A stretch of 30,132 bases of DNA from the NCBI GenBank assembly GCA_029942065.1, contig JAPYTY010000001.1, positions 1 to 30,132 on the forward strand, read 5' to 3'. The position numbers and the translations under genes were made by a program. The stretch comes from Acidobacteriota bacterium (GTDB lineage Bacteria; Acidobacteriota; UBA6911; RPQK01; JADFOI01). The notes beneath the pieces were generated by a model, which worked only from the letters and a program-made list of their open reading frames with translations, was not told the DNA's origin and made no database searches. Shown here one piece after another: positions 1 to 22,582 of the stretch. Position 1 is the stretch's first letter. The number at the start of each line of letters is the position of its first letter.

Positions 1-2
1 AA

Positions 3-221
3 AGCGGCATCCATCCTGACTATCAAATAGTGGCAGTGAGTTGCGCCTGTGGGAATAAATGGGAAACGCGCTCCACCTGCACAGGTGAAATCCGTTTGGA
101 GATTTGCTCTCAATGCCATCCCTTTTTTACGGGCAAGCAAAAGCTTATCGACACTGCAGGGCGAGTGGAGCGATTTCACCGAAAATACGGAAAGCTCCAG
201 AGGGAAAGTTCCTCAGATTAA
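3..221 (+). CDS. rpmE: 50S ribosomal protein L31 (zinc-binding type), 5'-truncated by the window edge
   Basis: Frame from nt 3 reads [18 protein letters not shown]...[26 protein letters not shown]. This has the L31 signatures (GIHP, CxC, CxxCHPFFTG, GRVERF). The true start lies just upstream of the window. Confidence 0.97.
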
Positions 222-230
222 CCACCGGCT

Positions 231-3235: not shown

Positions 3236-4689
3236 GTTGGCCGGGAAGGGCGCCCCCTCGAATTCTATTCTGCCTCTGGCTCCTTTTCGCGGCGGCCTGG
3301 GGCAACGTCGAATCCGCCTGTGGCCAGACCTCCAACCCCATGGGCCAGGAAAACATACGGGTTGAGGTCAATCTGGCAACCCTGCGATTCACCGTCAAGA
3401 AGCCGGATGGATCCCTTCTCAACGACCTGCTCCAAGAGGACTTCAGGGTGTTCGAAGGCGGAACCCCTCAGGAAATCGCATTTTTCGACGCCCCCCGCAA
3501 TCAAGGCGGTGCGGCCGCGCCTCTGCGGCTCGCCTTCTTGATTGATGTCAGCGGCAGCACCTTTGCCACTCGCGCCGAAGAAATCGCAGCGGCCTCGACC
3601 TTCCTCGAAAATGTGCATGATTTCACCGAGGTGGGGATCTTTGGTTTTACCGATGAACTGGCCCCTTTCCAGGACTTCACGGCGGATCGCTCTCTGGCCC
3701 AGAAGGCCTTATCCCGAGCAAGGCGACCTCTGGGCAGGACCGCCTTGTACTCGTCCCTGGAGGAACTCCTGCGGCATATTCGCACTCAACCCGCGGCGGC
3801 TGATCGCAACGTGGTCATCCTGATCTCCGATGGCATGGATGACGCCTACCAGGGCGCCCAGCAGGCCATCGAGCTGGCCCGGCGCTCCAACGTGGTTATC
3901 TACGCCATCCTGGTGCCATCCGCGGCGCAACTCTACATCGGCCCGACTTCACCGGCGGCGGCGGCGGCTCCGACCGCAGCTCAGTCGTCGAATGACGATC
4001 GCAAAGAAAAAGAGGCCGCCTTTTCCAGCCTCTCGATTGGCACCAACGGAAAGCACTTCAGTGGATTTGAGGCCATCCTGAACTTTGACGATGTGATGGC
4101 TCAAATCAACGATGATGTTTTTGGCAACCTTTACTCCATCGGCTACTACACGGATGATCCGTATCGAGACAAGGCCCAGAGGAATATTCGCGTCCAGATC
4201 AGCCACCCGGAGGCCTACATCCCCGCTCGATTCGAGCATCTTCCGGACAGCCTGCTGGCCAAGAAGAATTTCGTTGCAGCGCTTTTTGACAGCGATGCCA
4301 TCGCCAGCCTGATCGACAACCTCTATACCTTCCATGAAATCGGTGCCGATATGGACCTGCTCTCCGTCCGGCGGGAAGGAGGTCGGTTTGGACTCCCCTT
4401 TCGTATCAAGATCAGCCCCCACCCCTTGCGGGGGGAGAAGGGCAACGTCAGGACCCAATTTGGGGTCATCGGGTTGCTGCTGGATCAACAGGGCAGGGAG
4501 GTGGTAAGGCTGCGGGAGATTTTCCGCGTGGACCTGGACAGCAAGGATATCCGTAATGGTCGAGGAATTATCTACACCAACACCCTCTACGCTCCCCCCG
4601 GAACCTATGCCCTGAAGATTGCCCTCCTGGAGATTGCCACCTGGAAGCTGACCTCTTTTTCCAAAATCGCTCGAATCCGGGAGAATTAG
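3232..4689 (+). CDS. Exported VWA (MIDAS) domain protein of the acidobacterial VWFA-related type, with a C-terminal extension
   Basis: Hydrophobic N-terminal signal-like segment; [11 protein letters not shown]...L..EDFRVFE leader; MIDAS DVSGS, GRTALY, ISDGMD; ATGA overlap with folE. Confidence 0.85.
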
Positions 4690-6457: not shown

Positions 6458-7126
6458 TTGAGGATGCCTGAAAACTCTCTCTTTAGCCTCCATGCGGAAG
6501 AGGCGGACGACGCCCTTTTCGATCCGGCCTGTGCCCTTTGGGCTCGATGTGAGCCGGCGGCGATTGACCGGTTTTGGAGCGGCAAATCGGCCCTGCGCGA
6601 AAGAGGTCACAACTGGCCCGACCTGACCCATGTTCGCTCGTTATGGAGCAACGAAGCTCTTTTTTTCTATGTCGAATCCTGGTTTGACTCGCTTAACGTC
6701 AATCCCGACTGGGGGACCGGGGAGGCCACCCGGGACCTGGCGGACAAAGATGTGATCGAGGTCTTCCTGAGGCCGGAGGGATCGGATCACTATTACGAAT
6801 TTGAGGTCAGCCCTCTTGGGCAATGGCTCGACGTGTGTATCATGAGGCCCCGTGTCGAGATAGATGCCGACTGGCAATCCAGCATGGCGGTAAGGGTGAT
6901 TTCGACTGAAGGCGAGGGAGTCTGGCGAGCTTTCCTTAGGGTCCCCTATCAACCCATGATGGCGCCACCTCCAGGGGTGGGCGCCGCCTGGCGGCTGAAC
7001 CTGTTTCGCATCGCCGGGCTGGAGCCCGCACGTGATTACCTTGCGTGGCGGCCGACTTTCACGGAGCGCCCCGATTTTCACGTACCCTGGGCCTTCGGCC
7101 ACCTGATCTTTTTGGATGGTGCCTAG
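6458..7126 (+). CDS. Carbohydrate-binding family 9-like (DOMON-like) protein
   Basis: VRSLWSNEALFF, DVIEVFLRP, YYEFEVSPLG, WRLNLFR, LAWRPT..PDFHVPWAFG. The start may be ATG 6464. Confidence 0.82.
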   Translation: MRMPENSLFSLHAEEADDALFDPACALWARCEPAAIDRFWSGKSALRERGHNWPDLTHVRSLWSNEALFFYVESWFDSLNVNPDWGTGEATRDLADKDVIEVFLRPEGSDHYYEFEVSPLGQWLDVCIMRPRVEIDADWQSSMAVRVISTEGEGVWRAFLRVPYQPMMAPPPGVGAAWRLNLFRIAGLEPARDYLAWRPTFTERPDFHVPWAFGHLIFLDGA

Positions 7127-8095: not shown

Positions 8096-8751
8096 AGAAT
8101 AATTGCCAGGTCGAGCGTGAGGAGATGGTGTCAAGCCAGCTGGAAAAAAGAGGCATCCGTGAGGCCCGGGTCCTCGAGGCCTTCAGGGGGGTCCCGAGGC
8201 ATGAGTTCGTTCCTGGCCACCTGAAGGGCCGGGCCTACGCCGATGGCCCTCTTCCACTCGACCAGGGGCAAGCAATTAGCCAGCCTTACATGGTGGCCAT
8301 CATGACTCAGGCGGCCAGGCTGAGCCCGGGTCAGCGAGTTCTTGAAATTGGCACCGGCAGCGGCTACCAGTCGGCCATCCTGGCCGAAATGGGCATGGAG
8401 GTGTACACCATCGAGCGGATGGCAGTCCTCAGCAAGCAGGCCAAGGGAACGCTGCAGCGCCTGGGCTACCATGGAGTGCGCGCCAAGGTGGGAGACGGCA
8501 CCCTGGGCTGGAAGGACGAAGCCCCTTTCGATGCCGTACTGGTGACCGCTGCTGCCCCGGAGCTCCCCGCACCCCTGCTGGATCAGCTGGAACTGGGAGG
8601 CCGATTGGTGATCCCCCTGGAAGAAGGCCCCTCCCAGGTACTTTACGTGATCACACGTCGTCAGAGCGATTTCCATAGGAATCGGGGCGAACGCTGCACC
8701 TTCGTGCCCTTGATCGGTGAGTATGGCTGGGAAAAAGACCCGCGACCCTAG
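8092..8751 (+). CDS. pcm: Protein-L-isoaspartate O-methyltransferase
   Basis: VPRHEFVP, QAISQPYMVA, LEIGTGSGYQ, GDGTLGW, APFDAVLVTAA, FVPLIG; ATGA overlap with rnhB. Confidence 0.96.
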   Translation: MKNNCQVEREEMVSSQLEKRGIREARVLEAFRGVPRHEFVPGHLKGRAYADGPLPLDQGQAISQPYMVAIMTQAARLSPGQRVLEIGTGSGYQSAILAEMGMEVYTIERMAVLSKQAKGTLQRLGYHGVRAKVGDGTLGWKDEAPFDAVLVTAAAPELPAPLLDQLELGGRLVIPLEEGPSQVLYVITRRQSDFHRNRGERCTFVPLIGEYGWEKDPRP

Positions 8752-10012: not shown

Positions 10013-13000
10013 TTACTTTCCGTCGCGGGAAAGCTTGCCCAGTTCGACAACCGCTTGGTGGGCTTGGGCCGCAACCTGTCGATAGCGCTCATCCTGAGAG
10101 CCCTGGGCAGCGCCGTCATCGGCCTCGACCTTGATGGCGGGCCCCAAGAACACCTCGATCGGTGTGGGCCGAGGGAAAGTTGCGCCTGGCGGCATGGCCC
10201 GATAGGCGCCCTGGATGTAGATGGGGACAATGGGTGCGCCCGATTCGGCTGCGATCAGCCCTATCCCCGGCTTGAAGTCCTGGATACGGCCCGTCCTGGA
10301 GCGCGTCCCTTCTGGAAAGATAAGTACCGGCTCGCCCTCCGCCAGGATGGCCGTCACCAGGCGCAGGCTTGCCAAGGAGGCCTCCTCCCTCTCCACGGGC
10401 ACAAGGTTGAGAAGCGCGCTGAGCGCCCAACCCTTGAATGTATGGTCAAAGAAGTAGTCCCTGGCCCCTAAAACGTGCAGCCTCGTCGCCTCGTCGGGGC
10501 CCAGCGCGACACCCAGGGAGGCGATGACGGCCGCGGCATCCAGGTGGCTACTATGATTGGCGGCGATGATGTAGGACTGGCTGCGGGGAAAATGCTCCGG
10601 GTTGTGCAGCCGTAGCTGGAAATAGGACTTGTACAGGCCCTTGAGGGTCGCGAAAGAGGTGCGCAACAAAAATTGGTCGGTCGCCGAACGCTTGGCGTAG
10701 GGCCGAGCCGAACGGATCTGAATGGGCCGAGGGGCGGCCTCGTCGGCCGGCGACAACGATCGGGCTTGTTCCAGAACCTGTCCCGCCGTCTGCAGGCTGG
10801 CTGCCACCTGGTCTGGGACCGACACTCCCAAAGTTCGCTCCACGTACAGCAGGAATTCGATGGCCATGAGCGAATCGAAACCAAGATCGGTATAGAGGTG
10901 GCTCTTGTCGCCGATTTCCTGAACAGGGATCCCGGAAAGTCGACTCAATTCCGCCAGTATTTTTTCTTTCTGGCTCCGAGGCGACCCCGTCTGCGGCGCC
11001 CCCCGGGTGGCGGTAGTTCGATTCTGGCGCTGTTGCGACATCAATTTCCGGCGGACCTCTTCTCTGTTGATTTCTCCCGAGTCGGTTCGGGGAAGGGGTT
11101 CCATCCAGGTATGGACGTGTTGGAGTCTATGGTAGCTGGGTAATTCCCTGGCCATCTTTTGAATTTCCTTCTGCAGTTCCTTTTTTGCTTCGCCAGGATC
11201 ACCTCCTGCTCGGGCCGCCAGGGTGGGCACCACGGCTGCATGGATGTCCTCCGTTAAACCGCTTGAAATCCCTATCACGCACACCTCTTCGATGGAGGAA
11301 ATGCTGCGGTAAATTGCCTCCAGGTCAACTGGGTAAACGTTCTTTCCGGCCCCAGTAACAATAACGTCCTTCTTTCGTCCCGTTATGTAGACGTATCCAT
11401 CGGCGTCAATCCAGCCCAGATCTCCGGTGTGCAACCATCCGTCTTTGATCGCCTTTCGGGTGGCGACTGGGTTCTTGTAATACCCCTTCATGAGGCTGGG
11501 GCTGCGCGCGATGATTTCCCCGGCGCCCTCCCGGTCCGGGGAAGAAATCCTCAATTCGACGCCCGGAAGGGGTTTGCCAACTGAGCCCTTTCGGCTCCGG
11601 TGCAGGGGATTGACGGTCAGCACGGGCGCAGTTTCAGTTAATCCGTATCCTTCGTAAATCGGCATTCCCAGGCCCTGGAAGTCTTCGTAGAGCTCTTTTC
11701 CCAGCGCCGAGCCTCCGCTCACAAAGAGCCTGATCTGTCCGCCGAACTCGCGGTGGATTCGAGCAAACAATTGACGGCCAACATTTTTCCCGAGTTTTTT
11801 TCCCACCGACAAGCTCAACTGCTTGGAGGTACCCAGGAGATTCGATTTCAGAGCGGATTTGGGCGCCTTCAGCAAGCGCCTCTCTGTATCCTCCCGGATC
11901 AACGCATAAAGAGTGGGCACTCCGAGCATGCAGGTTGCGCCCACCTCTTTCATGATTCCAAGGATCACCTTGGGCTTCAGGGAGTTCAGGTAGGTCACTG
12001 TGGCGCCGGCATTCAACGCCATCAGGAATCCGCAGGTAAACTCCAGGGCGTGGTTCAGGGGTAGAACTGAAAGCAATTGGTCGCTCTCCGAAGCAGGAAG
12101 GTAGCGATTGACGCCCAGTAGGTTGTTGATGAAGTTGCGGTGGGTGTGGATCGCCCCCTTGGGATCAACGATAGTGCTATTGGTAAAAATTATCGATGCC
12201 GGATCATCAGGGCCCACCTCAACTTTGCCTGGGTTGGCTGAGGCCAGCTTTCCAGTGCTGCGAGGGTACTCCTCGCGGCCAAAGGGCGTGCACTCCCGAT
12301 CGACATTGAGTAGCCTTACGGGAACCTCCGAACTTTCGTTGGCCTCCAGGCCATCAGTGGGGAGCCTTGACAGGCAATGTTCGGAGGTTAGGACAGCCCG
12401 AGCCTCCGTGAACCGAATAACCGACCAGACTTCCCTGTGCCAAGTTTGTGCGTCCAGGGGGACGACAATTACACCTATCGATACCGCCCCGAGATACGCC
12501 ATTCCCCACTCGGGCTTGTTCTCTGAGAAAAGAATGATCCGGTCGCCCTTCTTCAGTCCGGCTCGCTGCAGAGTTCCCCCGATTTCCCGAGCGGCCGCGC
12601 CCAGGGCCCTGTAAGTGAATTTCTGCCAGACTCCGTCGCGCTTGACCTGCAGGGCGGTTTTGTCGGGAAACTTGTCGGCCGCTCGGTCGAGCAGGGCATT
12701 GATGGTGGGGTTATCTCTCGTCGCATCCCGCTCCACCTCCAGAACTCCCGCGCCTTCCAGCTTAAGGATGTGTTTTTTGACTCCGGGTATGTGGACATTT
12801 TGGATATAGTGCCGCCAATTCAGCGAGCTTATATCAAAACCCAGAACCCTCTTCTCGTCTTCGCTGAGGGAGTGGAATAACTCCTGAGTGTTCTTTACTT
12901 CGAAGCGGCAACTGAGGTTGAGGTAGGGCTCATAGATCTGCCCATAATAATAAAGTCTGTCGTAGGCGGCCCGGACGGCGGACACTCTTCGCTTGAACTT

Positions 13001-14338
13001 GGAAAGGGTTGGGGTCGCGGGGAGTCTGGCCAACGCCGCTTCCACTATTTGCAGGGGGACTCTCCGGAGGTGATGCTGAATTCGAAAGGTGGTTGGATTG
13101 TGGAATTTGAGCGGCTTGATGTGGATAGGGCTTCCTGTTTTGTCGGCCATGGGGTTCTTTCGGAAATAGCCGTAAACTAGGTCGTGGAGTTCACCCAGGG
13201 TGACTGGGTTGGTGTCTCCAGTGGCCACCTGGTAAATCTGTAGGCCACCCCGCCTCAAGGCGATCGGAATGGCAGCCAAAAGAGCGTTGACAACCATATC
13301 CACCGGAATTAAGTCCAGGGCTATGTTGGCATCCAGGGGCAGCGCTCGAAGGCGACCTTTCCCGATGGCGACAATGAGTGGGTCGGCCATGCGTAACCCG
13401 TCGAGCCAACCCGGGGTTGGCTCAGCGATACTACTCTCGATTACGGAAGGACGGATAATTACAGTGGGTGCGCCGTTACGCCGTTGCAATACCATTTGCT
13501 CCCCGATAGCCTTGGTGTAGGTGTAGGTATCGTTCCACCCTCTTTGTTGGGCCCACTTCATACCCTCGGTGGCAAGTTGCTCCTGTAGCCACCTACTTTG
13601 CAAGCTCTCTAGTTTGTCCTGGTGGTCACCTCTCCGGCCCGACCTTCGGGCGCGCTTGAGTAACAGCTCTTTGGTAGTCGGCTGATCGACCTCGTTTTTC
13701 AACCTAGTTATCTTGCCTTTGAGTAGTTCGATTTCCCGATTGACATCACTGAACTTTCGGAGGGGGTAGGCTTCATTTAACTCCTCGCCCGTAGCCAGGT
13801 GGTGCATGGTTTCGGGCGCATTCTGGTTGGTCGCACCAGCCACATAGGCTGTAGAGACGTGAACTAAAAGGGCGTCCTTACAGGAATTAGTGAATTCAGC
13901 TACCCGGGCAGCGCTCAAACTGTTCCCTTCGAGGGCGGTGTCTAGGGGTGCGTCAAAGGAAACCACAGCAGCGCTATGGATCACAATATCAATCTCTTCG
14001 CGTAATTGACTGCAAACGCCCGCCTCCAACCCAAGTTTTTCGCTCAAGATATCGCCTGAGACAACAACTAGTTTTTCCTCCAAGAATTTCTTTGTGTCAA
14101 CTCCGTGAGATTGGTAGAGGCGGTCAAAAACACTCGAACCCAGTAACTCTTTTTCGAGGCGCTCTTGAGCGTTCACAATTCGGCCGCCGAGTTCCTGTTT
14201 GGGCCGGATCAAGATATAGACCCGCTTGACACCCGCAGCCAACCAAAGAATTTTCTCCACCAGTGGTTGCCCTAGGAAGCCGGTCGCCCCGGTGACGAGA
14301 ATCACTTTCCCCTCTAGCGCCTCCGTCACTCTATTCAT
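10013..14338 (-). CDS. ElbD-like multidomain lipid enzyme: fatty acyl reductase + AMP-binding domain + ACP + acyltransferase (1441 aa)
   Basis: TGATGFLG and Y272-TYT-K276 (extended SDR/FAR); GYGLTE, GWLHTGDLG, GRKKD (ANL adenylation fold); DLGFDS1156L (phosphopantetheine Ser); NH1262SSHLD and FPEGTRS (PlsC-type acyltransferase). Confidence 0.9.
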   Translation of the reverse strand: MNRVTEALEGKVILVTGATGFLGQPLVEKILWLAAGVKRVYILIRPKQELGGRIVNAQERLEKELLGSSVFDRLYQSHGVDTKKFLEEKLVVVSGDILSEKLGLEAGVCSQLREEIDIVIHSAAVVSFDAPLDTALEGNSLSAARVAEFTNSCKDALLVHVSTAYVAGATNQNAPETMHHLATGEELNEAYPLRKFSDVNREIELLKGKITRLKNEVDQPTTKELLLKRARRSGRRGDHQDKLESLQSRWLQEQLATEGMKWAQQRGWNDTYTYTKAIGEQMVLQRRNGAPTVIIRPSVIESSIAEPTPGWLDGLRMADPLIVAIGKGRLRALPLDANIALDLIPVDMVVNALLAAIPIALRRGGLQIYQVATGDTNPVTLGELHDLVYGYFRKNPMADKTGSPIHIKPLKFHNPTTFRIQHHLRRVPLQIVEAALARLPATPTLSKFKRRVSAVRAAYDRLYYYGQIYEPYLNLSCRFEVKNTQELFHSLSEDEKRVLGFDISSLNWRHYIQNVHIPGVKKHILKLEGAGVLEVERDATRDNPTINALLDRAADKFPDKTALQVKRDGVWQKFTYRALGAAAREIGGTLQRAGLKKGDRIILFSENKPEWGMAYLGAVSIGVIVVPLDAQTWHREVWSVIRFTEARAVLTSEHCLSRLPTDGLEANESSEVPVRLLNVDRECTPFGREEYPRSTGKLASANPGKVEVGPDDPASIIFTNSTIVDPKGAIHTHRNFINNLLGVNRYLPASESDQLLSVLPLNHALEFTCGFLMALNAGATVTYLNSLKPKVILGIMKEVGATCMLGVPTLYALIREDTERRLLKAPKSALKSNLLGTSKQLSLSVGKKLGKNVGRQLFARIHREFGGQIRLFVSGGSALGKELYEDFQGLGMPIYEGYGLTETAPVLTVNPLHRSRKGSVGKPLPGVELRISSPDREGAGEIIARSPSLMKGYYKNPVATRKAIKDGWLHTGDLGWIDADGYVYITGRKKDVIVTGAGKNVYPVDLEAIYRSISSIEEVCVIGISSGLTEDIHAAVVPTLAARAGGDPGEAKKELQKEIQKMARELPSYHRLQHVHTWMEPLPRTDSGEINREEVRRKLMSQQRQNRTTATRGAPQTGSPRSQKEKILAELSRLSGIPVQEIGDKSHLYTDLGFDSLMAIEFLLYVERTLGVSVPDQVAASLQTAGQVLEQARSLSPADEAAPRPIQIRSARPYAKRSATDQFLLRTSFATLKGLYKSYFQLRLHNPEHFPRSQSYIIAANHSSHLDAAAVIASLGVALGPDEATRLHVLGARDYFFDHTFKGWALSALLNLVPVEREEASLASLRLVTAILAEGEPVLIFPEGTRSRTGRIQDFKPGIGLIAAESGAPIVPIYIQGAYRAMPPGATFPRPTPIEVFLGPAIKVEADDGAAQGSQDERYRQVAAQAHQAVVELGKLSRDGK

Positions 14339-14545: not shown

Positions 14546-14644
14546 GGAGGTACTTCCCGCCTGGTGACGGGCCTGGTCTTCAAAACCAGTCGAACTGCAG
14601 CGAGAGTTGTGGTTGGTGGGTTCGATTCCCATGTACCTCCGCCA
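14546..14644 (+). tRNA. selC: tRNA-Sec (anticodon TCA), 99 nt
   Basis: 8-bp acceptor GGAGGTAC/GTACCTCC; 6-bp D-stem with TGGT loop (one C.A mismatch); CTGGT-CT TCA AA-ACCAG; 9-bp variable arm with GAGA loop; GTGGG TTCGATT CCCAT; G73 then CCA. Confidence 0.96.
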
Positions 14645-14961
14645 GAGTGTGGGGATGGACTCATTAGTTCTAGGTATAAGATAAATCAACTAGTTATCTT
14701 TTTATAAGAAGTAGTAGTCTCTGTGTATTTGTTGAAAAAACCGCCAATCTGCGCCAGTCCGGGTCTGACCGCCTGGAACAACATGTGAATAATAATTTAA
14801 TAGGGGGTGGGAAGTTAAGAGGCAAGGCGGTAAACGGATCCGAGTGCCGGTAATCCACAGTCGTCCTTCAATAGAGCCCAGATAAAGAGAGCAAACTAGA
14901 AGACTTGAGTGGGGTTTGCCACTGTTGAAATCTTCTGGGCGCGAACCCTTGAGGTGAAAAG
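14645..14961. other. Candidate chromosomal replication origin (oriC)
   Basis: 14661-14740 is 20/80 G+C. Trio-like AAG AAG TAG TAG (14706-14717), a 4-nt spacer, then overlapping DnaA-box-like TGTGTATTT/TGTTGAAAA (14722-14738). Further boxes: TGTGAATAA (14784-14792) and TAATCCACA (14851-14859). rpmH, parAB, parS and mnmG are nearby. Confidence 0.65.
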
Positions 14962-15810
14962 ATGTGTGAAAAAATGATCATCGCCATCCAGGGCGAGCGG
15001 GGATCTTATAGCGAGCAGGCCGCAACAGAGCTCCTGGGTTTCGAGGTGGAAGTTTCTTGTTGTGAATATTTTGAAGAGGTTTTCGAGCGAACTGCAAATA
15101 AAAACACAACCCATTGCCTGATCCCCATCGAGAACTCACTCTCCGGGTCGATTCACAAGAATTACGACCTACTCCTCCGGCACAACCTAAAAATCACTCG
15201 CGAGATCAACCTACCCGTGCAACATAGCCTGGTGGTTGCACCTGGAGTGAAATTCGAAGAAATCAAGGTTGTCATCTCTCATCCCGTTGCCCTAGATCAG
15301 TGCGAGAAATTCTTCGAGAAGAACCCGCAGTTAACCAAGCAAAGCGCCTACGATACCTCTGGCAGCGTCAAGCGGATCATGGAGGAGGGCTTGAAAAGCT
15401 CGGCGGCGATTGCCGGGGAAAGAGCTGCTGAACACCACGAAGCAGAAATTTTAATGGCGGGAATTCAGGACAATCCAGAGAATTTCACGCGGTTTTTCTT
15501 GCTGGCCAGCAAACTGGAAATGGGGGAGAATCGGAACAAAACATCTATTGTGTTCAGCTTCAAGAATACACCCGGGGCCCTATTCAAATGCTTGAGTGTT
15601 TTCGCTCTTCGCGATATTGATCTTTATAAAATCGAATCGCGCCCCATCCCGGGCCGAGCCTGGGAATACCTGTTTTACATGGATTTCCTGGGTAACCCCG
15701 AGGAAGAGGCTCCCCGCAACGCCCTGAGGCACTTGAGTGAATTAACTGAATTTCTGGAGGTGCTGGGAAGTTATCCGCGAGACGCCAAGTTGGAGAAAAA
15801 AAGAATTTAG
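14962..15810 (+). CDS. pheA: Prephenate dehydratase (PDT + ACT, no chorismate mutase domain)
   Basis: IQGERGSYSE, PIENSLSGSI, SHPVALDQC, ENFTRFFLL, KTSIVF, IESRP, YLFYMDFLG, LGSYP; GAGGTG Shine-Dalgarno at 14951-14956. Confidence 0.96.
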   Translation: MCEKMIIAIQGERGSYSEQAATELLGFEVEVSCCEYFEEVFERTANKNTTHCLIPIENSLSGSIHKNYDLLLRHNLKITREINLPVQHSLVVAPGVKFEEIKVVISHPVALDQCEKFFEKNPQLTKQSAYDTSGSVKRIMEEGLKSSAAIAGERAAEHHEAEILMAGIQDNPENFTRFFLLASKLEMGENRNKTSIVFSFKNTPGALFKCLSVFALRDIDLYKIESRPIPGRAWEYLFYMDFLGNPEEEAPRNALRHLSELTEFLEVLGSYPRDAKLEKKRI

Positions 15811-16466: not shown

Positions 16467-16607
16467 ATGAAGCGCACATTTCAGCCCAACAACCGCCGCC
16501 GCCGTAAGAAGCACGGGTTTCGAGAGCGCATGAAAAGCCGCTCCGGCAGGCTCATTTTAAAAAGGCGCAGAGCCAAGGGCCGTCATAGGTTGACGGTGAG
16601 TGGATGA
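16467..16607 (+). CDS. rpmH: 50S ribosomal protein L34 (46 aa; too short for the ORF track)
   Basis: Hand translation: [46 protein letters not shown]. Confidence 0.98.
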
Positions 16608-22566: not shown

Positions 22567-22582
22567 TGTTTCACGTGAAACA
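22567..22582. promoter_or_regulatory. parS centromere-like site
   Basis: TGTTTCACGTGAAACA, a perfect match to the widespread 16-bp parS consensus, 58 bp upstream of parA. Confidence 0.93.

What the first reader, a model, noticed from the sequence alone, without database searches (positions are those of the whole stretch)
14645..14973. Candidate oriC with a complete basal unwinding module, uncoupled from dnaA and sitting behind tRNA-Sec
Seen: + strand 5'-TAT AAG AAG TAG TAG TCTC TGTGTATTTGTTGAAAA-3' (14703-14738). That is four trio-like units, a 4-nt spacer and two DnaA-box-like 9-mers overlapping by one base, next to a 25% GC tract. Further boxes lie at 14784-14792 (exact TTWTNCACA), 14851-14859 and 14965-14973. 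Known: tandem boxes, a short spacer, 3'-GAT/GAA-5' DnaA-trios and an AT-rich tract form the unwinding module described for Bacillus subtilis oriC and many other bacteria. rpmH-yidC-mnmE, mnmG, parAB and parS are typical origin neighbours. Here dnaA is absent from its usual place beside rpmH, and the flanking protein genes point away from the spacer. Inference: a dnaA-distal origin.
Basis: partly seen in the sequence, partly recalled or inferred. Interest (0 to 1): 0.72.

Follow-up and report, generated by a model that had tools for sequence, protein, structure and literature searches.

The report
Replication origin beside the tRNA-Sec gene
The 317-base gap between a selenocysteine tRNA gene and the pheA gene is very probably where this uncultured acidobacterium starts copying its chromosome: an ordinary kind of origin in an unusual place that its whole family shares.

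Summary
The window alone is weak evidence, because the box scores are modest and the layout rule fits 5 sites in the genome. Comparison with relatives is what makes the case.

- **Family conservation:** all 9 genomes of the family with an assembled tRNA-Sec/pheA junction carry the same ordered module. It is an AT-rich tract, a TAG-repeat array (DnaA-trios), a short G-rich spacer, two tandem DnaA boxes and 3-4 further boxes. The rest of the spacer has diverged.
- **One copy per genome:** a profile of the module finds a single site in nearly every genome.
- **Independent profile:** a second profile, built only from modules of other families that lie between dnaA and dnaN or upstream of dnaN, picks this spacer as the best site in 8 family genomes. 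That includes the window's own, at a marginal E of 0.015.
- **GC skew in relatives:** the minimum lies 3.1 kb (G021), 10.5 kb (G023) and 2.7 kb (G007) from the module. It lies 90 kb away in rearranged G004 and is ambiguous in G028.
- **parS:** the only parS lies 7.8 kb away.

Verdict: a true oriC with a basal unwinding module, not next to dnaA. It is a new member of a known kind.

The parts
14546..14644 (+). tRNA-Sec gene (anticodon TCA). Its 3' end lies about 10 nt from the AT-rich tract.
   Evidence: ARAGORN. Rfam RF01852, 69.1 bits.
14655..14702 (.). AT-rich tract, the candidate DNA unwinding element.
   Evidence: 14655-14721 is 72% AT, and the AT-richest 60-mer of the window starts at 14681. 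An AT-rich tract sits at the same place in all aligned relatives.
14703..14717 (+). DnaA-trio array: five triplets with a central A. The two nearest the boxes read TAG, which is 3'-GAT-5' on this strand.
   Evidence: Read. Relatives carry 2-7 TAG repeats at the same column. This fits the rule (.A.){3,} of PMC8287927.
14718..14721 (.). 4-nt spacer between the trios and the proximal box.
   Evidence: Read. Relatives have 1-4 nt here, mostly G-rich. G004 and G014 have 11 nt between the intact TAG pair and the box.
14722..14730 (-). Proximal DnaA box of the tandem pair, 3 mismatches to the consensus.
   Evidence: Read. Its first four bases are invariant in 14 of 14 aligned modules.
14730..14738 (-). 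Distal DnaA box of the tandem pair, 2 mismatches. It lies 12 nt from the first trio.
   Evidence: Conserved in the family.
14784..14792 (-). DnaA box, 1 mismatch.
   Evidence: At this alignment block G004, G010, G013 and G014 carry an exact consensus box (columns about 146-154).
14851..14859 (+). DnaA box, 1 mismatch, in the opposite orientation.
   Evidence: A box-like block sits at the same columns in most of the 9 aligned spacers (columns about 213-226).
14923..14931 (-). Weak DnaA-box-like 9-mer.
   Evidence: 2 mismatches to the T-rich box variant. It aligns with stronger box-like 9-mers in G004, G007, G010 and G013 (columns about 300-322).
14962..15810 (+). pheA (prephenate dehydratase), the right-hand flank.
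   Evidence: Pfam PF00800, E 2.4e-57. No conserved box at that place.
10013..14338 (-). 1441-aa multidomain gene (fatty-acyl reductase-like, AMP-binding, carrier and acyltransferase domains), the left-hand flank. In several sister families the module sits directly beside this gene's start.
   Evidence: Pfam. tblastn of its N-terminus finds it in loci of G018, G023, G046, G066 and G072.
22567..22582 (.). Exact palindromic parS just upstream of parA, 7.8 kb from the module.
   Evidence: 0 of 100 shuffles reach 2 matches. It is the only site with at most 1 mismatch in the whole genome.

Best explanation
The spacer 14645-14961 is the chromosomal replication origin (oriC) of this uncultured Acidobacteriota genome. 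It is built as a basal unwinding system.

**Proposed mechanism.** This is inferred by analogy with Bacillus subtilis incC (PMC6669920, PMC8287927). Nothing was tested here.
1. DnaA occupies the better boxes at 14784 and 14851 and the tandem pair at 14722-14738.
2. From the tandem pair, an ATP-DnaA oligomer grows onto the plus strand of the TAG-type trios at 14703-14717.
3. The oligomer stretches that strand and opens the AT-rich tract at 14655-14702, right behind the tRNA-Sec gene.
4. The helicase is loaded there.

**Evolutionary setting.**
- Shown: the same module lies between dnaA and dnaN in some sister families. It lies beside tRNA-Sec and the large acyl-reductase-like gene in others. In this family it lies on the 3' side of tRNA-Sec.
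- Inferred: the origin has moved within this order, and dnaA and the origin are no longer neighbours.
For: **1. Phylogenetic footprint.**
- The module sits in the tRNA-Sec/pheA spacer of G000, G002, G004, G006, G007, G010, G011, G013 and G014, in the same order and orientation.
- blastn finds no similarity across the spacer, even within the genus.
- A strict pattern hits 7 of 15 family genomes, one locus each, with 0 hits of the reversed control.

**2. One copy per genome.**
- Profile R1 gives a hit at E<=0.01 in 42 of 76 genomes of the order. Forty of those have exactly one hit.

**3. Independent profile.**
- R2 was built from 12 modules of other families only. Eleven lie between dnaA and dnaN and one lies upstream of dnaN.
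- Its best genome-wide hit is this spacer in G004 (2e-11), G014, G013, G010, G011, G007, G002 (0.005) and G000 (0.015).

**4. GC skew in relatives.**
- G021: a sharp V with its minimum at 472,080. The module is at 468,895 and dnaA is 487 kb away.
- G023: minimum at 2,311,471, module at 2,321,966.
- G007: minimum at 75,061, module at 72,390.

**5. Formal criteria.** The window meets the published criteria for a basal unwinding system (see the membership test).

**6. Origin-typical setting.**
- It contains the AT-richest 60-mer of the window.
- The single parS of the genome lies 7-9 kb from the module in G000, G004 and G023.
- rpmH, rnpA, yidC, jag, mnmE, parBA and mnmG are nearby.

**7. No room at the canonical site.** The dnaA-dnaN gap in this family is only about 35-100 nt and holds no box within 2 mismatches of the consensus, by my reading. 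No box scan was run on it.
Against: - **G004:** in the only closed genome of the family, the cumulative G-C minimum is at 3,211,940, with a flat stretch to 3.34 Mb. That is 90 kb from the module at 3,121,480. The discrepancy begins at a synteny breakpoint at 3.126 Mb relative to G007 and the window, so a recent rearrangement may explain it. I did not show that.
- **G028:** the minimum (115,333) lies midway between a weak module hit (70,034) and dnaA (157,154).
- **G007:** the skew is flat from 50 to 75 kb, so the region upstream of dnaA is not excluded there.
- **The window's own skew:** 0.000 on the left and +0.041 on the right. Three of 14 other contigs of at least 16 kb show a difference between halves that is at least as large.
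- **The window's copy is weak:** it is among the most degenerate in the family. R2 gives E 0.015 and no box is exact.
- **Stronger boxes elsewhere:** tighter box clusters sit upstream of dnaA (C82 8116-8147) and on C274.
- **Assembly:** the genome is 91.5% complete in 648 contigs, so a second site in unassembled DNA cannot be excluded for this genome.
- **No experiment:** no binding, unwinding or replication data exist.
Confidence: 0.82

Rival explanations
1. The spacer is an auxiliary DnaA-binding site, for example a titration or regulatory site, or an operator for pheA or tRNA-Sec. The firing origin would lie elsewhere, most likely upstream of dnaA, where contig C82 ends.
For: - The strongest box cluster for the T-rich box variant lies upstream of dnaA (C82 8116, 8128, 8139, 8340).
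- That contig breaks off 408 nt upstream of dnaA.
- In G007 the strongly negative skew ends at about 50 kb, just upstream of dnaA, and the stretch on to the module is flat.
- In G004 the skew minimum is not at the module.
Against: - The boxes upstream of dnaA lie within about 80 nt of its start codon and have no trios beside them. This is the usual look of autoregulatory operators, which I state from general knowledge.
- Neither R1 nor R2 finds a second module in G000, or in closed G004.
- A pure titration site or operator needs no trio array and no AT-rich tract, yet both are conserved.
- In G004 neither dnaA copy is near the skew minimum.
Confidence: 0.1
2. The module is a retired origin. 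It was kept for a while after the origin moved on and no longer fires.
For: - Origins have clearly moved within this order.
- The window's copy is degenerate: two intact TAG units and no exact box.
- In G004 the skew minimum is 90 kb away.
Against: - The module is kept across three genera of the family (g1, g2, g4), while the surrounding spacer has diverged beyond blastn detection.
- No replacement module is detectable in any family genome.
- By contrast, the dnaA-dnaN gap in this family has shrunk to 35-100 nt. That shows what an abandoned site looks like here.
Confidence: 0.05
3. The match is a chance assembly of box-like and trio-like words in an AT-rich intergenic tract behind a tRNA gene.
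For: - The formal layout rule is loose: 5 sites fit it in 2.9 Mb.
- 156 windows in the genome hold two boxes with at most 1 mismatch.
- The short order-wide pattern was no more frequent than its reversed control, with 13 genomes hit against 22 control hits.
Against: - The same ordered elements are conserved in 9 family genomes.
- A profile built without any family member still finds the site.
Confidence: 0.01

Closest known systems
Bacillus subtilis oriC unwinding region incC and its basal unwinding system (Richardson et al. 2016, recalled; PMC6669920 and PMC8287927, passages read)
   Same: - The order of elements is the same: several DnaA boxes, a tandem pair next to a short spacer, a repeat of 3'-GAT-5' trios, then an AT-rich tract.
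- The distal box of the pair is the better match to the consensus.
- The better box lies 12 nt from the first trio. The published peak is 10-13 nt.
- Sister families of this order even keep the module between dnaA and dnaN, with the trios on the dnaN side.
   Different: - Here the module is not between dnaA and dnaN. It lies between tRNA-Sec and pheA.
- No second box cluster upstream of dnaA is linked to it, so it is not a bipartite origin.
- The boxes are weaker, with no exact consensus box in the window.
- Function is untested.
Escherichia coli-type oriC lying away from dnaA, between gidA (mnmG) and mioC (location as mentioned in PMC10225481; the rest recalled)
   Same: - The origin is separated from dnaA by tens of kilobases.
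- It lies in a neighbourhood with mnmG, mnmE, yidC, rnpA and rpmH.
   Different: - The flanking genes differ.
- In the letters I saw one GATC in the spacer and no 13-mer repeats. No count was run.
- The trio array here is a plain TAG repeat.
Helicobacter pylori oriC, with a basal unwinding system validated outside Firmicutes (PMC8287927 passages; PMC8235120, listing only)
   Same: A box-plus-trio module in a Gram-negative lineage.
   Different: H. pylori oriC is bipartite around dnaA (recalled). This one is a single spacer away from dnaA.

Membership tests
Basal unwinding system (BUS) as defined in PMC8287927 | A DnaA box with at most 2 mismatches to the consensus, within 0-16 nt of the trios. 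| tested here: met
   The box at 14730-14738 has 2 mismatches and lies 12 nt from the last trio base at 14717. Rule text.
Basal unwinding system (BUS) as defined in PMC8287927 | Optional second box in tandem, with at most 4 mismatches. The site farther from the trios is usually the better match. | tested here: met
   The box at 14722-14730 has 3 mismatches (own count). The distal box is the better one. Rule and tendency.
Basal unwinding system (BUS) as defined in PMC8287927 | At least three consecutive trios with a central adenine, with 3'-GAT-5' most frequent next to the box. | tested here: met
   Five NAN triplets at 14703-14717, and the two next to the spacer read TAG. Relatives have up to seven TAG units.
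Basal unwinding system (BUS) as defined in PMC8287927 | An AT-rich region beyond the trios, on the side away from the boxes. | tested here: met
   14655-14702. The AT-richest 60-mer of the window starts at 14681.
Basal unwinding system (BUS) as defined in PMC8287927 | DnaA-dependent strand separation that needs both the box and the trios. | not testable with these tools
   This needs purified DnaA and the scaffold assay of PMC8287927.
Chromosomal oriC (DnaA-dependent) | Lies at the switch of GC skew (the cumulative minimum). | tested here: inconclusive
   The own genome is in 648 contigs, and the window's skew is not distinctive.

Distance from the module to the minimum in relatives:
- G021: 3.1 kb
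- G023: 10.5 kb
- G007: 2.7 kb, with a 25-kb plateau
- G028: 45 kb
- G004: 90 kb
Chromosomal oriC (DnaA-dependent) | A cluster of DnaA boxes conserved among relatives. | tested here: met
   Four to five box positions are shared across 9 family spacers.
Chromosomal oriC (DnaA-dependent) | One per chromosome. | tested here: met
   R1 gives one hit in G000 and in closed G004 at E<=0.01. R2 gives one hit in G004 at E<=1. In G000 the next-best hit has E 0.245.
Chromosomal oriC (DnaA-dependent) | Supports initiation in vivo (marker-frequency peak, autonomous replication). | not testable with these tools
   The organism is uncultured. One 20-kb read layout cannot show a replication gradient.
dnaA-adjacent origin (dnaA-dnaN type) | The origin lies in the spacer next to dnaA. 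| tested here: not met
   - dnaA is on contig C82.
- The dnaA-dnaN gap is about 100 nt, without a box within 2 mismatches of the consensus by my reading; no scan was run on it.
- In G007 dnaA is 25.4 kb from the module.

The most novel reading that the evidence does not exclude
The origin of a whole acidobacterial order left the dnaA-dnaN spacer and has since stayed within about 1 kb of the tRNA-Sec gene in at least nine families. It lies upstream of the tRNA gene in most of them and downstream in this family.

The most novel reading is that this is not mere synteny. Transcription of tRNA-Sec would help to open the origin. In this family it runs straight into the AT-rich unwinding tract, and no terminator-like site was found on that strand.
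Probability: 0.12. Interest if true: 0.6.

Novelty: new member of a known kind. Interest (0 to 1): 0.45.

Why it matters
- **First anchor for these genomes.** This gives a sequence-level origin for a family of uncultured Acidobacteriota. Two full-text searches listed no paper on an acidobacterial oriC or on an origin beside tRNA-Sec. DoriC itself and paper supplements could not be consulted.
- **Practical uses.** The module can set the start coordinate of closed metagenome-assembled genomes. It can orient contigs. It can anchor growth-rate estimates from read depth in these lineages, where dnaA is a poor guide: dnaA lies 25 kb to about 490 kb from the module in the relatives examined.
- **Natural series of origin moves.** Related genomes carry the same unwinding module between dnaA and dnaN, upstream of dnaN alone, upstream of tRNA-Sec, or downstream of tRNA-Sec. 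This is useful material for asking how origins relocate without killing the cell.
- **What it does not do.** The mechanism itself is the known one, so this does not change how origins are understood.

Tried and rejected
- **Whole-genome skew of the window's own genome.** Not possible, because the assembly has 648 contigs and the window is the longest. The window's own skew is not distinctive.
- **Joining contig C82 (dnaA) to the window's left end.** There is no end overlap. The two genes that lie between dnaA and the prfA homologue in G007 have no match in this assembly. Adjacency is therefore unproven.
- **Short order-wide pattern.** It was no more frequent than its reversed control (13 genomes against 22 control hits in 19 genomes). 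I used only those hits whose context I then checked. G066 C1:2530374 lies in coding-looking sequence and was dropped as chance. The G046 C12 and G029 C4 hits resemble each other and not the origin context, and were dropped as a possible mobile element.
- **Box-cluster scan of 460 kb around the G004 skew minimum.** It found only weak three-box groups, with no rival origin candidate.
- **G028 skew.** Ambiguous.
- **Integrated element behind tRNA-Sec.** Rejected. The spacer is 317 nt between conserved housekeeping genes, and the junction is syntenic across the family.
- **RNA element in the spacer.** Rfam finds only the two tRNAs in the window.
- **Earlier notes of this scan.** Three look-ups returned nothing.
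- **Not seen.** Paper supplements (the parameter tables of PMC8287927 and the indicator-gene tables of Ori-Finder) were closed and may refine the criteria. DoriC and Ori-Finder could not be run.
Full report
**Setting**

The window is the whole of contig C1, the longest of 648 contigs of a 2.9-Mb genome that is 91.5% complete and 55.8% GC. Titles of related public records name uncultured Acidobacteriota.

The finding lies in the 317-nt gap between tRNA-Sec (14546-14644, plus strand) and pheA (14962-15810).

- **To the left:** a 1441-aa multidomain acyl-reductase-like gene on the minus strand (10013-14338). Beyond it lie tRNA-Ser, a PCMT methyltransferase, RNase HII, folE, prmC and prfA.
- **To the right:** an AhpC-like gene, rpmH (16467-16607), rnpA, a yidD-like ORF, yidC, jag and mnmE. 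Then come parB and parA on the minus strand, an exact parS (22567-22582) and mnmG. I named rpmH and yidD from their sequences by recall.

**The observation**

- Five triplets with a central A occupy 14703-14717, and the last two read TAG.
- A 4-nt spacer follows.
- Then come two 9-mers that share one base, with 3 and 2 mismatches to the consensus DnaA box.
- Further boxes with 1 mismatch lie at 14784 and 14851.
- The box at 14965 lies inside pheA and is not conserved, so I set it aside.
- The AT-richest 60-mer of the window starts at 14681 (77% AT). Only 363 of 2,879,040 such windows in the genome reach 75% AT.

On its own this is suggestive, not compelling.
- 156 of 90,415 330-nt windows hold two boxes with at most 1 mismatch.
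- A formal 'trios, spacer, two boxes' rule fits 5 sites in the genome.
- Tighter box clusters exist upstream of dnaA on contig C82 and on contig C274.

**Comparison within the family**

tRNA-Sec followed by pheA is conserved across the order, but blastn finds nothing in the spacer, even within the genus. Read by eye and then aligned, the spacers of G002, G004, G006, G007, G010, G011, G013 and G014 all show the same series as the window:
1. an AT-rich tract;
2. a TAG repeat of 2 to 7 units;
3. a short, mostly G-rich spacer;
4. the same tandem pair of boxes;
5. about 45 nt further on, a strong box that is an exact consensus in four genomes;
6. a box in the opposite orientation;
7. one or two more boxes.

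A strict pattern for the core hits 7 of 15 family genomes, one locus each, and its reversed control hits none.

The six family genomes without a module at the junction give no counter-example.
- G001, G003, G005, G008 and G009 have no tRNA-Sec match at all.
- G012 has only a 39-nt fragment of the tRNA.

In other families the tRNA-Sec/pheA gap is only about 65-170 nt, or holds another gene.

**Comparison across the order**

A sequence-only profile of 14 modules (R1) finds a hit at E<=0.01 in 42 of 76 genomes, and 40 of those have a single hit.

I checked context with the window genome's own DnaA, DnaN and acyl-reductase N-terminus and with the tRNA-Sec coordinates. This sorts the non-family hits as follows.
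- **Between dnaA and dnaN, trios on the dnaN side:** 11 genomes of 4 families (G074, G022, G039, G033, G050, G052, G054, G051, G053, G029, G015).
- **Upstream of dnaN, with dnaA 487 kb away:** G021.
- **Beside the start of the acyl-reductase-like gene and/or up to about 450 nt upstream of tRNA-Sec:** G018, G023, G046, G066, G072, G031, G019, G037, G028 and G017.
- **About 1.1 kb downstream of tRNA-Sec, on the other strand:** G025 and G034.
- **Weak hit about 50 nt upstream of tRNA-Sec, on the other strand:** G038 (E 0.0037).
- **Context not checked:** eight weaker hits, in G073, G041, G042, G043, G047, G075 and the family genomes G008 and G009.

The arrangement between dnaA and dnaN is that of Bacillus subtilis incC, as described in the passages I read of PMC6669920.

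**An independent test**

R1 included family members, so I built a second profile (R2) from 12 modules of other families only, all next to dnaN.

Searched over the 15 family genomes at E<=1, its best hit is the tRNA-Sec/pheA spacer in eight genomes:

| Genome | E-value |
|---|---|
| G004 | 2e-11 |
| G014 | 1.8e-9 |
| G013 | 1.3e-7 |
| G010 | 2.3e-7 |
| G011 | 1.5e-6 |
| G007 | 1.8e-5 |
| G002 | 0.005 |
| G000 | 0.015 |

- In G000 the hit is at 14689-14742, and the next-best hit in that genome has E 0.245.
- In G006 the spacer hit (1e-6) ranks second, behind a hit on another small contig.
- G003 and G012 have no hit.

The window's copy is thus recognisable but among the most worn in the family.

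**GC skew**

Skew is weak in this order, about 0.02-0.06.

| Genome | Cumulative G-C minimum | Module | Offset | Note |
|---|---|---|---|---|
| G021 | 472,080 | 468,895 | 3.1 kb | sharp V over a 400-kb stretch; dnaA at 955 kb |
| G023 (closed) | 2,311,471 | 2,321,966 | 10.5 kb | dnaA at 2,348,405 |
| G007 (family, 94-kb contig) | 75,061 | 72,390 | 2.7 kb | curve flat from 50 kb, just upstream of dnaA, to 75 kb |
| G028 | 115,333 | 70,034 (weak hit) | 45 kb | midway between the module and dnaA |
| G004 (family, closed) | 3,211,940 | 3,121,480 | 90 kb | flat to 3.34 Mb; at least 300 kb from either dnaA copy |

- G004 is rearranged relative to G007 and the window. The block with the module and the block with prfA-to-dnaA adjoin in those two genomes, but about 495 kb separates them in G004.
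- The misfit in skew starts at that breakpoint, 3.126 Mb.
- I take G004 as unexplained rather than as a refutation.

**Other support**

Each of G000, G004, G023 and G021 has a single parS with at most 1 mismatch. It lies 7-9 kb from the module in the first three and 38 kb away in G021. G007 has none at that threshold.

In the family, the dnaA-dnaN gap has shrunk to about 35-100 nt, with no box within 2 mismatches of the consensus by my reading. The canonical site is therefore not available.

**Mechanism and verdict**

The best reading (0.82) is a working oriC built as a basal unwinding system.
1. DnaA binds the boxes.
2. It spreads from the tandem pair onto the TAG trios of the plus strand.
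3. It opens the AT-rich tract behind tRNA-Sec.

All functional steps are inferred from PMC6669920 and PMC8287927 (passages). Nothing was tested here.

The window meets each sequence criterion of PMC8287927 (see the membership test). It fails the criterion of lying next to dnaA.

That origins need not be next to dnaA is established (PMC10225481 passage). This is therefore a new member of a known kind, in a location not reported in the papers my two searches reached.

Rivals:
- an auxiliary DnaA site, with the origin upstream of dnaA (0.10);
- a retired origin (0.05);
- chance (0.01).

Noticed in passing
G000 contig C82 (locus L003) 8116-8147 and 8340: Three tightly packed T-rich DnaA boxes lie within about 80 nt upstream of the dnaA start, with a fourth further on. 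This is the top window in the genome for that box variant. The contig ends 408 nt upstream of dnaA. The boxes are probably autoregulatory operators, and no trios lie beside them.
   Followed up: partly
G000 contigs C274 about 2440-2640, C412 about 1560-1680, C114 about 3350-3400: Further clusters of DnaA-box-like 9-mers. On C274 there are four in one orientation. Flanking genes were not examined. They could be DnaA-regulated promoters or titration sites.
   Followed up: no
G000 contig C82 (L003) about 6637-6736, the dnaA-dnaN gap: The roughly 100-nt gap begins with a stretch that resembles, in order, the distal box, the proximal box and two trio units of the dnaA-dnaN modules of sister families. 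The box cores are destroyed. It may be a decayed relic of the ancestral origin. G007 and G004 lack it.
   Followed up: partly
G004 (public record OY760074.1) 39,094-40,443 and about 3,513,465: The closed family genome has two full-scoring dnaA genes. About 495 kb lies between two blocks that adjoin in G007 and in the window. The GC-skew minimum and a 130-kb stretch of zero skew lie inside that interval.
   Followed up: partly
L095 (G046 C12) and L096 (G029 C4): Two genomes of different families share a near-identical element outside the origin context. It is an A-rich run, three TAG units, about 10 nt and a DnaA-box-like word. It may be a mobile element or plasmid-type origin.
   Followed up: no
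window 10013-14338 (minus strand): A 1441-aa fusion of a fatty-acyl reductase-like domain, an AMP-binding enzyme, a carrier domain and an acyltransferase. It is conserved as the neighbour of the origin module in several families of the order.
   Followed up: partly
L172 1705-2470; L168 about 2384-2503: In a related group, a PHP-domain-like gene of about 800 nt lies between tRNA-Sec and pheA. In the f4 genome only a short N-terminal remnant of it is left. In the window's family the origin module occupies this gap. The domain name comes from reading the translation by eye, not from a search.
   Followed up: no
G006 contigs C69, C81, C91: Profile R2 hits three small contigs in this 72%-complete genome. 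This may reflect strain variants or contamination rather than three origins.
   Followed up: no
G007 contig C13 32105-33424 and 73795-75252: Two copies of one gene, probably an insertion sequence. One lies between pheA and rnpA, only about 1.4 kb from the origin module.
   Followed up: no
window 1-230: The contig starts inside a gene that reads like ribosomal protein L31 (rpmE), just upstream of prfA. This was named by eye, not by a search.
   Followed up: no
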